A stretch of 64,000 nucleotides of DNA from a virus: the UHGV virus genome UHGV-0293664; one strand, 5' to 3'. Shown here one piece after another: positions 2,962 through 4,653 of the stretch (position 1 is the first letter of the stretch; every line of letters starts with the position of its first letter). The position numbers were made by a program, and so were the translations under genes. The notes beneath the pieces are model-generated. The model worked only from the letters and a program-made list of their open reading frames with translations. It ran no database searches and had not been told where the DNA came from.

Positions 2962-3300
2962 ATGGCGGATACAACTAAAAAGCGTCGCCGTAGAGGCAGA
3001 CCTCTGAAAGAGGAGTCCAACGCCATTCAGCTAGAGAAGAACATCCTTGATATGAAGGAATCTTTTATAGCGATGGTTCCAGAAGCTCACAAAGTTTTAA
3101 GAGAGCTGATGTTGGACCCGAAAACCAAACAAAATATTCGTCAAAGCATTGCAGAGTATGTTCTTGATAAGGCAGAACGAATGCAGGAAGAATATGATGA
3201 GATGTTTGGTGAAGAGGAAGAGGTGGTAGTGGAAGAGGCTGAAAAACCAGCACCCTTTATGCCATTTACCACAGAAATACAGCCTGTTGGCAATAGTTAA
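2962..3300 (+). CDS. basic/acidic small protein with KKRRRRGRP motif, putative nucleic-acid-binding regulator
   Basis: ATG at 2962 after RBS GGAGGA; Arg/Lys patch at N-terminus, acidic C-terminus; the track ORF 2842..3300 was trimmed because its upstream part covers the promoter. Confidence 0.5.
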   Translation: MADTTKKRRRRGRPLKEESNAIQLEKNILDMKESFIAMVPEAHKVLRELMLDPKTKQNIRQSIAEYVLDKAERMQEEYDEMFGEEEEVVVEEAEKPAPFMPFTTEIQPVGNS

Positions 3301-3309
3301 AATATTTTC

Positions 3310-3338
3310 TTGACAAACTTTGCTTAACAGTGTAATAT
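3310..3338 (+). promoter_or_regulatory. sigma70-type promoter for the tRNA cluster (TTGACA-N17-TAATAT)
   Basis: TTGACA 3310-3315, 17-nt spacer, TAATAT 3333-3338. Confidence 0.6.
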
Positions 3339-3396
3339 TGTAAACATGGTCTCCCACCTTTTCTGGCGGCTCAGGTGTAAAAGAAAGCCACCCAGT

Positions 3397-3471
3397 GCCC
3401 TGTTAGCTTAGTGGATAAAGCAGCGGCCTTCTAAGCCGTTGACACTGGTTCGAGTCCAGTACGGGGTGCCA
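3397..3471 (+). tRNA. tRNA-Arg (anticodon TCT)
   Basis: Hand-folded cloverleaf: 7-bp acceptor stem (two G-U pairs), D-loop with GG, anticodon loop cttctaa, T-arm actgg-ttcgagt-ccagt, encoded CCA. Confidence 0.7.
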
Positions 3472-3601
3472 AGTTCTTTTTAATGTAGCTTACTTTAGCA
3501 GAGTAAATCTTCGGCAAGTGGCGGTAACCACTTTACCGATACCTCATAGTTAGTGGTGAGAACACTAGCTATTTTAAAAAGAATTTAAATATTAGTATTT
3601 A

Positions 3602-3689
3602 GGTGAGTTAATTCCGTAGGGGTAGCGGGGCAGACTGTAAATCTGTTATCATTGCGATTCGGGTGGTTCGACTCCATCACTCACCACCA
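3602..3689 (+). tRNA. tRNA-Tyr (anticodon GTA), long variable arm
   Basis: Acceptor ggtgagt/actcacc, anticodon loop ctgtaaa, long variable arm, T-loop ttcgact, encoded CCA. Confidence 0.7.
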
Positions 3690-3803
3690 AATTTATATTT
3701 TTAAATGCATAAATCATACAGATAATGGCATTGATATTTATCGTCGTTTATACTAGTCACTAACTGCTCGAAAATCAGTGTCATTATCAGTATTGTTTAT
3801 AAA

Positions 3804-3894
3804 AGAGGGTAGGGAGCAATGGTGCTCAAGCGGTCTTGAAAACCGTCCCGTTGAGGATGACTCGATGATGGTTCGATTCCATTATCCTCTGCCA
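3804..3894 (+). tRNA. tRNA-Ser (anticodon TGA), long variable arm
   Basis: Acceptor agagggt/atcctct, anticodon stem gcggt/accgt with loop cttgaaa, long variable arm, T-loop ttcgatt, encoded CCA. Confidence 0.7.
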
Positions 3895-3992
3895 TATTGT
3901 TGACCTTGTAATTAAGCGAAAGCCGGAAGCAGAACCGGATTATCAAATGTTACAGTCGTCATCGCCGACTAGCAACATGGTCAACATACTGA

Positions 3993-4089
3993 GCTAGGTA
4001 AGCCCTTTGGCAAGGGCGAGGATTTTTAATCCTGAAAATAGACGAGGTAGTCGTTGAATACATAGGTGGTTCGATTCCATCACCTAGCA
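3993..4089 (+). tRNA. aberrant 97-nt tRNA-like gene (possible anticodon TTT; isotype unresolved; may be a pseudogene)
   Basis: Perfect 7-bp acceptor stem gctaggt/acctagc, canonical D-arm gccc-tttggcaa-gggc and T-arm ggtgg-ttcgatt-ccatc, but about 30 extra nt between anticodon and T arms and no encoded CCA. Confidence 0.4.
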
Positions 4090-4096
4090 CCTTTTT

Positions 4097-4172
4097 GCTG
4101 ATGTAGCACAATTGGTAGTGCAATTGATTTGTAATCAATAGGTTGCAGGTTCGAGTCCTGCTATCAGCACCA
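4097..4172 (+). tRNA. tRNA-Thr (anticodon TGT)
   Basis: Acceptor gctgatg/tatcagc, anticodon stem attga/tcaat with loop tttgtaa, T-arm gcagg-ttcgagt-cctgc, encoded CCA. Confidence 0.75.
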
Positions 4173-4173
4173 T

Positions 4174-4248
4174 GGCCCTGTAGCTGGAAGGTTCAAGCAA
4201 GCGACTCATAATCGCCAGACGGTGGTTCAATTCCACCCAGGGCCACCA
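4174..4248 (+). tRNA. tRNA with CAT anticodon (Met, or Ile if lysidine-modified)
   Basis: Perfect acceptor ggccctg/cagggcc, anticodon loop ctcataa, T-arm ggtgg-ttcaatt-ccacc, encoded CCA; D-stem and first anticodon-stem pair are imperfect. Confidence 0.6.
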
Positions 4249-4259
4249 AATAATAAATA

Positions 4260-4336
4260 CTCCGCGTAGCTCAGCTTGGTAGAGCGCCTGATTTGGGATC
4301 AGGAGGTCGAGTGTTCGAATCACTCCGTGGAGACCA
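4260..4336 (+). tRNA. tRNA-Pro (anticodon TGG)
   Basis: Acceptor ctccgcg/cgtggag, D-arm gctc-agcttggtag-agcg, anticodon stem cctga/tcagg with loop tttggga (G37), T-arm gagtg-ttcgaat-cactc, encoded CCA. Confidence 0.75.
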
Positions 4337-4383
4337 CTTTCAGTTATACTTTAAACATATACAAACAAAAGGAACCTTTAAAA

Positions 4384-4653
4384 ATGTATACACTTAAAAT
4401 TGTAGAGCGTGTAAATCCAACCCATACCGTAGATTTTCGTGACGATTTCAATCCTCTGGCTGTAAATCTTCGAGAGTCATATCATGAACTCAGCTGCGAT
4501 GCAGTGGTGGTCTTTTTTGAAGACAACTCTGAAGGGGCGGTAGCTTGTGTTGTTGATAGTGAGCAGAAGTTTTATATTTACAGAGATGTAGATGCATACT
4601 TGATGAATGAAAATGCAGTTACTGTTAGAATCATCCACCGAGTGCCTCGATAA
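4384..4653 (+). CDS. hypothetical small protein
   Basis: ATG at 4384 after RBS-like AAAGGAA; the longer track ORF 4276..4653 overlaps tRNA-Pro and was trimmed. Confidence 0.4.
   Translation: MYTLKIVERVNPTHTVDFRDDFNPLAVNLRESYHELSCDAVVVFFEDNSEGAVACVVDSEQKFYIYRDVDAYLMNENAVTVRIIHRVPR

What the first reader, a model, noticed from the sequence alone, without database searches (positions are those of the whole stretch)
3993..4089. Aberrant 97-nt tRNA-like gene with a roughly 30-nt insertion between anticodon and T arms
It has a perfect 7-bp acceptor stem and canonical D- and T-arms, but the anticodon stem is imperfect (loop tttttaa, implying anticodon UUU) and is followed by about 30 extra nt. That is longer than any normal variable arm. 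It also lacks an encoded CCA, unlike its six neighbours. It could be a pseudogene, an insertion-containing tRNA or a tRNA-derived regulatory RNA.
Basis: seen in the sequence. Interest (0 to 1): 0.5.

Follow-up and report, generated by a model that had tools for sequence, protein, structure and literature searches.

The report
Conserved five-arm tRNA-like phage RNA
The odd 97-nt "tRNA" in this rV5-like coliphage is not a decayed gene. It belongs to a strongly conserved, previously undescribed family of L-shaped tRNA look-alikes carried in phage tRNA clusters, with an anticodon end that is not built or conserved like that of a decoding tRNA.

Summary
There is a 7-bp acceptor stem, a T arm, a D arm, a short hairpin where the anticodon arm should be, 30 extra nt before the T arm, and no encoded CCA.

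The window is an rV5-like coliphage (Vequintavirus). Homologues occur once per genome in the tRNA clusters of five Vequintavirinae genera and one N4-like Salmonella phage. None was found in bacterial genomes. GenBank labels disagree (Lys, OTHER, TERM, ???, or nothing), and no paper found describes it.

Across 25 distinct sequences, all five helices keep pairing through compensatory changes. The D-loop/T-loop elbow pair also covaries (G19:C56 to U19:A56). The D arm is tRNA-Sec-like (6 bp with a tetraloop). The linkers around the extra hairpin (GAAAA, AAUACAUA) are near-invariant.

The "anticodon" loop changes in length (5, 6 or 7 nt) and sequence between close relatives. The neighbouring tRNA-Thr keeps YUUGUAA throughout.

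Within Vequintavirus the element is 96-98% conserved against 80-85% for spacers, so it is not a pseudogene.

Most likely it is a processed, non-decoding tRNA mimic that engages a tRNA-binding factor, possibly as a defence-nuclease decoy. That role is inferred, not shown. A non-canonical tRNA-Lys(UUU) remains possible for the rV5 form.

The parts
3310..3339 (+). Sigma-70-like promoter (TTGACA-17/18-TAATAT) upstream of the tRNA operon that contains the element
   Evidence: Consensus scan, 10 of 12 matches. This is a consensus match only. That it drives the element's transcription is inferred.
3993..3999 (+). Acceptor stem, 5' strand (GCUAGGU)
   Evidence: Pairs perfectly with 4082-4088. Across the family it is 100% paired, and 4 of 7 pairs show changes on both sides.
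4000..4001 (+). Junction nucleotides 8-9 (AA; A8 instead of the usual U8)
   Evidence: AA or AG in all 25 family members.
4002..4017 (+). D arm: 6-bp stem GCCCUU/AAGGGC with 4-nt loop UGGC (tRNA-Sec/allo-tRNA-like)
   Evidence: MFE fold. Across the family it is 100% paired, with 3 of 6 pairs changed on both sides. Loop base G19 covaries with T-loop base C56.
4018..4034 (+). Anticodon-like arm: G26, AGGAU-UUUUA-AUCCU, G44. Alternative reading: G.G plus 4 bp plus 7-nt loop UUUUUAA.
   Evidence: The stem is kept by compensatory changes (AGGAU/AUCCU, AGGUC/GACCU, GGGC/GCCC). The loop is 5, 6 or 7 nt long and its sequence varies.
4035..4041 (+). Linker 1 (AAAAUAG), single-stranded
   Evidence: GAAAA is present in 23 of 25 members and GUAAA in the other 2. 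It was not part of any search pattern.
4041..4055 (+). Extra arm hairpin (G)ACGA-GGUAG-UCGU(U)
   Evidence: MFE fold. There are 19 distinct extra-arm sequences in the family. Folded on their own, all but one (L009) give a hairpin at the conserved position. Av-05 carries an A-U to G-C change on both sides.
4055..4064 (+). Linker 2 (UGAAUACAUA), single-stranded
   Evidence: AAUACAUA is present in 24 of 25 members and CAUACAUA in 1. Caveat: part of the set was collected with a pattern that contains this motif. It is nevertheless present in all nine of the phage-record homologues found by BLAST that I retrieved.
4065..4081 (+). T arm GGUGG-UUCGAUU-CCAUC
   Evidence: 100% paired across the family. 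The T loop is UUCGAUU when the D loop is UGGC or UGGU, and UUAGAUU when it is UGUC.
4082..4092 (+). Acceptor 3' strand ACCUAGC, discriminator A4089, then CCU (no encoded CCA)
   Evidence: 18 of 25 members end in U73-CCA. The rV5 and Av-05 lineages end in ACCU, ACAU, UACA or CACA.

Best explanation
The locus encodes a functional, structured, non-canonical tRNA-like RNA. It is one member of a family carried as a single cassette in phage tRNA arrays.

It is transcribed with the tRNA operon. Like its neighbours, it is probably released by the host tRNA-processing enzymes: RNase P at the 5' end, then trimming and CCA repair at the 3' end.

It folds into an L-shape with a genuine D-loop/T-loop elbow, a tRNA-Sec-like 6-bp D stem, and an additional domain of two near-invariant A-rich linkers around a hairpin of free sequence.

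Its 'anticodon' hairpin is not constrained as in a decoding tRNA. I therefore propose that it does not read codons and works as a tRNA mimic. The conserved elbow, core and linkers would dock it on a tRNA-binding protein, and the fast-changing anticodon-like loop would tune specificity.

The rV5 loop and the two pairs below it copy E. coli tRNA-Lys(UUU), which is the substrate of PrrC and PARIS. A decoy or competitive substrate for host tRNA-cleaving defence nucleases is the concrete version I favour.

Shown here: the family, its structure, purifying selection, and the non-canonical, variable loop. Inferred: processing, lack of decoding, and the decoy role.
For: Family and distinctness:
- BLAST found homologues in 126-189 phage records.
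- The covariance model scores members at 98-119 bits, and the best ordinary tRNA at no more than 29.5.
- Two members not used to build the model score 99.9 and 106.8 bits.
- There is one copy per phage.
- There were no hits in 185,579 bacterial and archaeal species genomes, and none in 5,426 complete E. coli genomes.

Structure:
- 91% of cells pair, against 78% in shuffles (0 of 500 shuffles reach the observed value).
- 14 pairs show changes on both sides. Sliding the 3' partners drops pairing to 32-51%.
- The elbow pair G19:C56 becomes U19:A56 with perfect association (14+3 versus 8 sequences).

Selection in the rV5 lineage: the element is 96-98% identical, spacers are 80-85%, and the Thr, Met and Pro tRNAs are 95-100%.

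Loop not decoder-like:
- Loop classes are UUUUA and UUAUA (5 nt), CNNCCA (6 nt) and NAUCAAN (7 nt with A33).
- Two near-identical sequence pairs differ only in the loop.
- As a control, 16 distinct tRNA-Thr sequences from the same phages all keep YUUGUAA.
- Phages with UCC-type loops also carry a normal tRNA-Gly(UCC).

Family-specific features retained in rV5: the same linker sequences occur in rV5 and in the Salmonella phage KE22, which is 75% identical overall. This argues for a shared function rather than one specific to the rV5 lineage.

Mobility: the element is present in N4-like UTK0002 but absent, between the same two tRNAs, from FSL SP-076, whose flanking DNA is 99.5% identical.

Context from papers:
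- Host systems cleave tRNA anticodon or variable loops, and phage tRNAs counter them (PMC11555353, PMC13096335).
- Over-expressed phage tRNA-Tyr partly protects host tRNA-Tyr from Septu (PMC13096335).
- The E. coli tRNA-Lys anticodon stem-loop GUUGA-CUUUUAA-UCAAU compares with rV5 GAGGA-UUUUUAA-UCCUG (sequence taken from the PMC11555353 supplement).
Against: - There are no expression, processing or binding data for this RNA in any phage.
- A simple decoy would not obviously need near-invariant linkers or an extra arm.
- The loop classes other than Lys (UCC/GCC-like, UCA-like, UAU) do not correspond to known nuclease targets.
- U73-CCA with G1:C72 and C2:G71 is conserved in most members, and C35 is retained. 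This hints that aminoacylation matters, which fits a charged tRNA as well as a mimic.
- The rV5 form carries the full E. coli LysRS identity set (U34, U35, U36, A73; from my own knowledge of the identity literature). rV5 also has no other tRNA-Lys.
- The sequence sample is modest (25 distinct sequences). Several covariations may each reflect a single evolutionary event.
Confidence: 0.42

Rival explanations
1. It is a translation-active, non-canonical tRNA. In rV5 it would be a tRNA-Lys(UUU) isoacceptor with a tRNA-Sec-like core and an oversized variable region. It could supply or replace host tRNA-Lys, for example when that tRNA is cleaved by PrrC or PARIS.
For: - The 7-nt reading UUUUUAA has U33, UUU and A37, and the discriminator is A73.
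- Rfam tRNA scores it above the gathering threshold.
- BASEL records, annotated with tRNAscan-SE, call it tRNA-Lys.
- rV5-type clusters have no other tRNA-Lys, whereas larger clusters in relatives do.
- tRNAs with Sec-like D arms and long V arms work with the E. coli translation machinery (PMC5389517).
- Phage tRNA-Lys rescues infection from PrrC (PMC11555353).
Against: - This reading needs a G.G at 27:43 and no nucleotide 26. Alternatively, the loop closes to 5 or 3 nt.
- The sister genus Av-05 has UAU with U73 or C73. All other genera have 6-nt loops or A33.
- The family-specific linkers remain invariant in rV5, which is unexpected if it had become an ordinary decoder.
- CCA is not encoded and the 3' tail varies.
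Confidence: 0.25
2. It is a charged recoding tRNA. The UCA class would be an opal suppressor. The 6-nt or 8-nt UCC/GCC class would be a frameshift-promoting Gly-tRNA-like molecule used for phage gene expression.
For: - Henunavirus records annotate it as tRNA-sup(tca).
- The UCA-class loop equals the E. coli tRNA-Sec loop CUUCAAA apart from U33A. The E. coli loop sequence is from my own knowledge.
- These members score 37.6-39.1 bits on Rfam tRNA-Sec.
- The CCA class has U73, G1:C72, C2:G71, C35 and C36, which is 5 of the 6 E. coli GlyRS identity elements (sequences; the identity set is from my own knowledge).
Against: - A33 replaces the near-universal U33.
- The Rfam tRNA-Sec scores are below the gathering score of 47.
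- The acceptor/T configuration is 7/5 rather than 8/5, and the discriminator is U73 rather than G73.
- The position equivalent to 33 takes A, U or C in the CCA class.
- No recoding site is known in these phages.
- The window's own copy has neither UCA nor UCC.
Confidence: 0.08
3. It has no trans-acting role. It is a structural spacer or processing punctuation for the polycistronic tRNA precursor, or a selfish cassette that spreads within tRNA arrays by recombination between T-arm and acceptor sequences.
For: - It is always embedded in tRNA arrays, usually 2 nt after the preceding CCA.
- It shows presence/absence polymorphism between flanks that are 99.5% identical.
- Other spacers of the operon are also highly structured.
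Against: - A spacer would not need an elbow tertiary pair, near-invariant linkers and a U73-CCA end conserved across genera.
- It is conserved better than the flanking tRNA-Thr across genera.
Confidence: 0.12
4. It is a decaying tRNA pseudogene.
For: - No encoded CCA.
- Non-canonical anticodon arm.
- Inconsistent or absent annotation.
- The rV5 paper lists only six tRNAs (PMC3606486).
Against: - 96-98% identity where spacers are 80-85%.
- Substitutions are compensatory, or switch between wobble and Watson-Crick pairs, or lie in loops.
- It is conserved over five genera and has been transferred to another phage family.
Confidence: 0.03

Closest known systems
allo-tRNAs and other irregular tRNA-Sec-like tRNAs (Mukai et al. 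2017, PMC5389517)
   Same: - Long extra arm.
- tRNA-Sec-like D arm with a long stem and a tetraloop.
- U73 or G73 discriminator (most family members have U73).
- Highly diverse anticodons, including UAU.
- Some members appear not to be used in translation, and 'five-stem-junction' variants exist.
- Found in polycistrons of irregular tRNAs. The (8/4) tRNA-Ser of phages is actually the neighbouring gene here (3804-3894).
   Different: - The acceptor/T configuration is 7/5, not 8/4 or 9/3.
- The anticodon loop is 5-7 nt and lacks U33 in most members.
- The extra arm is flanked by 7-8 and 10-nt near-invariant single-stranded linkers.
- It was found only in phages.
- The window copy has A73.
Selenocysteine tRNA (Rfam RF01852)
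   Same: - 6-bp D stem with a 4-nt D loop.
- Long extra arm.
- The UCA-class relatives have loop NAUCAAN, close to CUUCAAA, and have tRNA-Sec as their best Rfam match at 37.6-39.1 bits.
   Different: - The acceptor plus T helix is 12 bp (7/5), not 13 bp (8/5).
- The discriminator is U73 or A73, not G73.
- It has A33.
- Scores are below the gathering score of 47.
- The window copy has UUU, not UCA.
Phage T4 small stable RNAs rnaC and rnaD (species 1 and 2)
   Same: - Non-tRNA stable RNAs encoded inside a phage tRNA cluster.
- rnaC ends in a T-arm-like hairpin preceded by an A-rich linker and a hairpin.
- Function still unknown (PMC9697503).
   Different: - No detectable homology. The family model does not hit T4 rnaC or rnaD.
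- The T4 RNAs lack the full cloverleaf.
Phage anti-defence tRNAs (T5/SP15 tRNA-Lys against PrrC and PARIS; T5/T6 tRNA-Tyr against retron-Eco7 and Septu)
   Same: - Phage tRNA-cluster genes whose value lies in countering host tRNA-cleaving immunity.
- The rV5 loop and the base pairs next to it resemble tRNA-Lys(UUU).
   Different: - Those are canonical, decoding tRNAs that replace or out-number the cleaved host tRNA.
- This RNA has a non-canonical anticodon arm and an extra domain.
- No defence phenotype has been tested for it.
Non-translating tRNA mimics (B. cereus tRNA-Other, bacterial Y-RNA YrlA tRNA-like domain, tmRNA tRNA-like domain)
   Same: An intact acceptor/T-arm/elbow module is combined with an anticodon region that has been altered or replaced.
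   Different: - No sequence or Rfam similarity. YrlA scores 14.8 bits at E = 9.6.
- Here all five helices of a class-II-like cloverleaf are retained.

Membership tests
Canonical elongator tRNA (Rfam RF00005) | Score at or above the Rfam gathering threshold (29 bits) | tested here: met
   35.5 bits for the window copy. However, the Seunavirus, Mydovirus and Av-05 homologues give no Rfam hit at E <= 0.01.
Canonical elongator tRNA (Rfam RF00005) | 7-bp acceptor stem, 5-bp T stem with a T-loop, and the G19:C56 elbow pair | tested here: met
   100% paired with compensatory changes. G19:C56 covaries to U19:A56.
Canonical elongator tRNA (Rfam RF00005) | 5-bp anticodon stem with a 7-nt loop carrying U33 and a purine at 37, conserved among orthologues | tested here: not met
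   The window copy needs G.G at 27:43 and no nucleotide 26 to fit. Family loops are 5, 6 or 7 nt, with A, C or U at position 33. The tRNA-Thr control keeps YUUGUAA.
Canonical elongator tRNA (Rfam RF00005) | U8 and A14, 3-4 bp D stem, variable region of 4-5 nt (class I) or roughly 10-24 nt (class II) | tested here: not met
   A8, a 6-bp D stem with a tetraloop, and a 30-nt region (38-39 nt in relatives) with long single-stranded linkers.
tRNA-Lys(UUU) | Anticodon UUU and discriminator A73 (E. coli LysRS identity set) | tested here: inconclusive
   Both are present if the 7-nt loop reading is used. The closest sister lineage has UAU with U73 or C73.
tRNA-Lys(UUU) | Charged by LysRS and decodes AAA/AAG | not testable with these tools
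   Needs aminoacylation and reporter assays.
tRNA-Sec (RF01852) | 13-bp acceptor plus T helix (8/5), G73, UCA anticodon, score of at least 47 bits | tested here: not met
   7/5 configuration, A73 or U73, and UUU in the window copy. The best relatives score 37.6-39.1 bits.
tRNA-Sec (RF01852) | 6-bp D stem with a 4-nt loop, and a long extra arm | tested here: met
allo-tRNA (Mukai et al. 2017) | 8/4 or 9/3 acceptor/T configuration | tested here: not met
   The G49-C65 equivalent pair is invariant and A8 cannot pair, giving 7/5. The neighbouring tRNA-Ser at 3804-3894 is 8/4.
allo-tRNA (Mukai et al. 2017) | Sec-like D arm, long V arm, G73 or U73, diverse anticodons | tested here: inconclusive
   The D arm, the V arm and the loop diversity are met. 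U73 is met in 18 of 25 relatives but not in the window copy, which has A73.
tRNA pseudogene | Relaxed constraint: divergence like the flanking spacers, and disrupted helices | tested here: not met
   96-98% identity against 80-85% for spacers. All helices are maintained.
T4 rnaC/rnaD-type stable RNAs | Sequence or structure homology to T4 species 1 or 2 RNA | tested here: not met
   Model R1 gives no hit on L023:1409-1672.

The most novel reading that the evidence does not exclude
A previously unrecognised class of phage RNA-level counter-defence. It would be a mobile tRNA-mimic cassette with a fixed elbow, core and linker platform and a rapidly diversifying anticodon-like 'bait' loop. The loop is Lys-like in rV5 and has other forms elsewhere. 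The cassette would trap or compete for host tRNA-targeting immune nucleases, or other tRNA-binding effectors, without taking part in translation.
Probability: 0.22. Interest if true: 0.8.

Novelty: new variant of a known kind. Interest (0 to 1): 0.58.

Why it matters
rV5-like and related Vequintavirinae phages are among the most commonly isolated and therapeutically used coliphages and Salmonella, Klebsiella and Cronobacter phages. This gene is labelled four different ways or ignored in their records.

Recognising it as a conserved family fixes that annotation problem. It also adds a defined, testable RNA to the current question of why phages carry tRNA genes, at a time when tRNA-cleaving defence systems and phage tRNA counter-measures are being uncovered.

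For tRNA biology it offers a natural scaffold that keeps the tRNA elbow and acceptor end. The same scaffold tolerates a 30-39-nt inserted domain and a 5-7-nt anticodon loop.

Tried and rejected
- **Intron or recent insertion.** Rejected. The extra domain is present, with near-invariant flanks, in every homologue. No insertion-free version scored between 30 and 98 bits with the family model.
- **Host origin or prophage copy.** No match in GTDB species genomes or in complete E. coli genomes.
- **Antisense target for the conserved linker.** The complement TATGTATTCA is not enriched in the window: 2 matches against 6 expected.
- **Homology to T4 rnaC/rnaD.** None.
- **tmRNA-like tag ORF in the insert.** A short frame exists in rV5, but by eye on the sequences it is not conserved in KE22.
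- **H-type pseudoknot between the UUUU loop and the AAAA linker.** Judged sterically implausible with a 1-nt connector, and no complementarity exists in other genera. This rests on reasoning only.
- **Loop-loop kissing, UGGA in the extra-arm loop with UCCA in the anticodon loop.** There is one compensatory case (L021, UGGC:GCCA). The pairing is unavailable in type-B or rV5 arms, so this is left as an unexplained lead.
- **Functional link to the neighbouring 202-aa coiled-coil protein (phrog_9325).**
  - The protein is unannotated.
  - It is present in N4-like phages that lack the element.
  - It is absent near the rV5 cluster.
  - It is probably linked to the tail-fibre module only.
- **Literature.** Searches found no description of this RNA.

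Full report
**Observation.** The window is an rV5-like coliphage: 99.5% identical to Escherichia phages ECML-10 and JEP1 over 3300-4400. It carries a tRNA operon on the + strand behind a sigma-70-like promoter at 3310-3339. The operon order is:
- Arg(UCU) 3397-3471
- Tyr(GUA) 3602-3689 (missed by ARAGORN, 39 bits in Rfam)
- Ser(UGA) 3804-3894
- the odd element 3993-4089
- Thr 4097-4172
- Met/Ile2(CAU) 4174-4248
- Pro 4260-4336

It has a perfect 7-bp acceptor stem, a T arm with UUCGAUU, a D arm with GG, a short hairpin where the anticodon arm should be, 30 nt before the T stem, and A-CC-U instead of CCA. All six neighbours encode CCA. Rfam's tRNA model scores it 35.5 bits against a gathering score of 29, but only by treating 26 nt as an insertion and accepting a G.G at 27:43. 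ARAGORN returns 'tRNA-??? (atcc)'. The minimum-energy fold is a five-helix cloverleaf, with z = -4.1 and 0 of 200 shuffles as stable.

**What others have called it.** Identical or near-identical copies occur in about 120 rV5-like records. They are annotated as tRNA-Lys, tRNA-OTHER, tRNA-TERM or tRNA-???(atcc), annotated as part of a hypothetical protein, or not annotated at all. The rV5 genome paper lists six tRNAs and omits it (PMC3606486). BASEL phages label it tRNA-Lys from tRNAscan-SE. Full-text searches found no paper discussing it.

**A family, not a one-off.**
- BLAST with the element and with a diverged homologue found it in Vequintavirus, Avunavirus (Av-05), Seunavirus (PVP-SE1, KE22, EspYZU14), Mydovirus (KB57, AV124) and Henunavirus (Hena1, pEp_SNUABM_01).
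- Pattern scans added IMG/VR and metagenome contigs.
- A covariance model built from 23 distinct sequences scores members at 98-119 bits. Every ordinary tRNA in the same loci scores no more than 29.5.
- Two sequences not used for the model score 99.9 bits (N4-like Salmonella phage UTK0002, Schitoviridae) and 106.8 bits (a 58-kb viral contig).
- There is one copy per phage, usually 2 nt after the CCA of the preceding tRNA.
- Nothing matched in 185,579 bacterial and archaeal species genomes or in 5,426 complete E. coli genomes.
- In UTK0002 the element sits between an 8/4 tRNA-Ser and tRNA-Asn. In FSL SP-076, whose flanks are 99.5% identical, those two tRNAs are adjacent and the element is absent. 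It therefore behaves as a cassette that is gained or lost within tRNA arrays and has crossed phage families.

**Structure.**
- On the model-guided alignment, acceptor, D and T helices are 100% paired. They have 4, 3 and 1 pairs changed on both sides.
- Overall, 91% of cells pair against 78% in shuffles (0 of 500 reach the observed value). Sliding the partners drops pairing to 32-51%.
- The D stem is 6 bp with a 4-nt loop, as in tRNA-Sec and allo-tRNAs, and position 8 is A.
- The D loop is UGGC or UGGU whenever the T loop is UUCGAUU (17 sequences), and UGUC whenever it is UUAGAUU (8 sequences). So the tertiary elbow pair G19:C56 has been replaced by U19:A56. This is strong evidence for a true L-shaped fold, although it may be a single evolutionary event.
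- The anticodon-position stem is maintained with different sequences (AGGAU/AUCCU, AGGUC/GACCU, GGGC/GCCC) and is always flanked by G...G.
- The extra arm has 19 distinct sequences. Folded on their own, all but one give a hairpin at the conserved position.
- By contrast, the single-stranded linkers are near-invariant. GAAAA occurs in 23 of 25 and GUAAA in 2. AAUACAUA occurs in 24 of 25. Part of the sample was collected with a pattern containing the second motif, but all nine of the BLAST-found phage-record homologues I retrieved have it too.

**The anticodon end is not that of a decoder.**
- Read as a 5-bp stem, the loop is 5 nt in rV5 (UUUUA) and Av-05 (UUAUA). It is 6 nt in Seunavirus and Mydovirus (CAUCCA, CAGCCA, CUUCCA, CCUCCA).
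- It is 7 nt only over a 4-bp stem in the 'UCA class' (CAUCAAA, UAUCAAA, AAUCAAG), where position 33 is A.
- Two pairs of otherwise identical sequences differ only in this loop.
- As a control, 16 distinct tRNA-Thr sequences from these same loci, far more diverged overall, all keep YUUGUAA.
- Phages with UCC-like loops also carry a normal tRNA-Gly(UCC).
- Rfam gives tRNA-Sec as the best match for the UCA class, at 37.6-39.1 bits against a gathering score of 47. It gives nothing at E <= 0.01 for the Seunavirus, Mydovirus and Av-05 copies.

**Not a pseudogene.** Against two diverged Vequintavirus contigs the element is 96-98% identical. Spacers are 80-85%, the 8/4 tRNA-Ser is 89-90%, and Thr, Met and Pro are 95-100%. 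The substitutions seen are of three kinds: wobble to Watson-Crick switches, double compensatory changes, and changes in loops or the 3' tail.

**Interpretation.** The conserved parts are the elbow, the Sec-like D arm, G26/G44 and the linkers, which all lie around the tRNA core. The acceptor sequence, the anticodon hairpin and the extra arm drift while keeping their helices. The family-specific linkers are identical in rV5 and in a Salmonella phage copy that is only 75% identical overall, so the function is most likely shared across the family rather than specific to rV5. I therefore favour a processed, L-shaped tRNA mimic that binds a tRNA-recognising protein and does not decode.

The rV5 loop plus its two closing pairs match E. 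coli tRNA-Lys(UUU): GUUGA-CUUUUAA-UCAAU against GAGGA-UUUUUAA-UCCUG (sequence from the supplement of PMC11555353). tRNA-Lys is the substrate of PrrC and PARIS. Phage tRNAs are now known to counter such systems, and over-expressed phage tRNA-Tyr can partly shield host tRNA-Tyr from Septu (PMC11555353; PMC13096335). A decoy or competitor role is thus the most concrete mechanism, but it is inference only.

**The main rival.** The rV5 form may be a working, non-canonical tRNA-Lys. It has U33, UUU, A37 and A73, and rV5 has no other tRNA-Lys. Sec-like, long-armed tRNAs can function in E. coli translation (PMC5389517).

In most other members, U73-CCA, G1:C72, C2:G71 and C35(C36) are retained. From my own knowledge of identity sets, this resembles the GlyRS or CysRS set, so charging may matter.

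**Comparison with known families.** The closest described relatives in kind are the allo-tRNAs and 'irregular' tRNA-Sec-like tRNAs of Mukai et al. (PMC5389517). They share the Sec-like D arm, the long extra arm, U73/G73, diverse anticodons including UAU, and members that appear inactive in translation. The defining 8/4 or 9/3 configuration is not met here, because this element is 7/5. The neighbouring tRNA-Ser at 3804-3894 is itself an 8/4 tRNA. T4's rnaC and rnaD are positional analogues of unknown function (PMC9697503), but the model does not detect them. I class the element as a new variant of a known kind: a non-canonical tRNA or tRNA mimic.

**Limits.** There are no expression or biochemical data. 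The sample is 25 distinct sequences. Part of it was collected by motif. Several covariations may each be a single event. The function remains unproven.

Noticed in passing
window 3804-3894 (+); also L041:2397-2482: The 'tRNA-Ser(UGA)' has an 8-bp acceptor stem (AGAGGGUA/UAUCCUCU), a 4-bp T stem, a 5-bp D stem with a 4-nt loop, G73 and CCA. This is the (8/4) tRNA-Ser configuration reported for some phages by Mukai et al. 2017. Rfam scores it higher on tRNA-Sec (39.4 bits) than on tRNA. In the N4-like phage UTK0002 a similar 8/4 tRNA-Ser lies 5 nt upstream of the odd element's homologue.
   Followed up: partly
window 3472-3601 (+): A ~130-nt segment between tRNA-Arg and tRNA-Tyr is absent from most rV5 relatives, where Arg and Tyr are 4 nt apart (L001, L002). 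It is bounded by the inverted repeat UUCUUUUUAA/UUAAAAAGAA. It folds into a multi-branch structure closed by an 11-bp stem (z = -3.4). It may be an inserted small RNA or the relic of a mobile element.
   Followed up: partly
window 3690-3803 and 3895-3992 (+): The two other long spacers of the tRNA operon also fold much better than shuffles (z = -4.7 and -2.6). The second is closed by a 9-bp stem, GUUGACC.../...GGUCAAC. They are 80-85% conserved in diverged Vequintavirus contigs. They could be further small stable RNAs, as with T4 rnaC and rnaD, or processing spacers.
   Followed up: partly
L004:1299-1383 (Av-05); L003 about 1610-1790 (KE22): These related tRNA clusters contain additional degenerate tRNA-like sequences. 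One example in Av-05 has a 7-bp acceptor stem, the loop CUUCUAA, a T arm and CCA, but no proper D arm. Neither ARAGORN nor the record annotates it.
   Followed up: no
L029 and L038 (metagenome contigs carrying UCA-class homologues): ARAGORN calls a tRNA with anticodon CUA ('tRNA-Pyl', an amber-suppressor type) in the same tRNA clusters.
   Followed up: no
window 4174-4248 (+): The CAU-anticodon tRNA is annotated tRNA-Met in some records and tRNA-Ile (AUA, which implies lysidine) in BASEL records. Its identity is unresolved.
   Followed up: no
phage records MG0656xx: Eighteen records named 'Campylobacter phage' carry rV5-type tRNA clusters. In the ones listed the element is 99-100% identical to this coliphage. 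They look like rV5-like coliphage genomes deposited under a Campylobacter host label.
   Followed up: no
L041:3685-4293; L047:5601-6206; upstream of the tRNA cluster in L003, L009, L012: A 202-aa coiled-coil protein of unknown function (phrog_9325) neighbours the tRNA cluster both in N4-like phages and in Seunavirus, Mydovirus and Henunavirus phages (36-50% identity). It was not found in this window or in the Av-05 loci searched by tblastn. It also occurs in N4-like phages that lack the odd element, so the linkage is probably modular rather than functional.
   Followed up: partly
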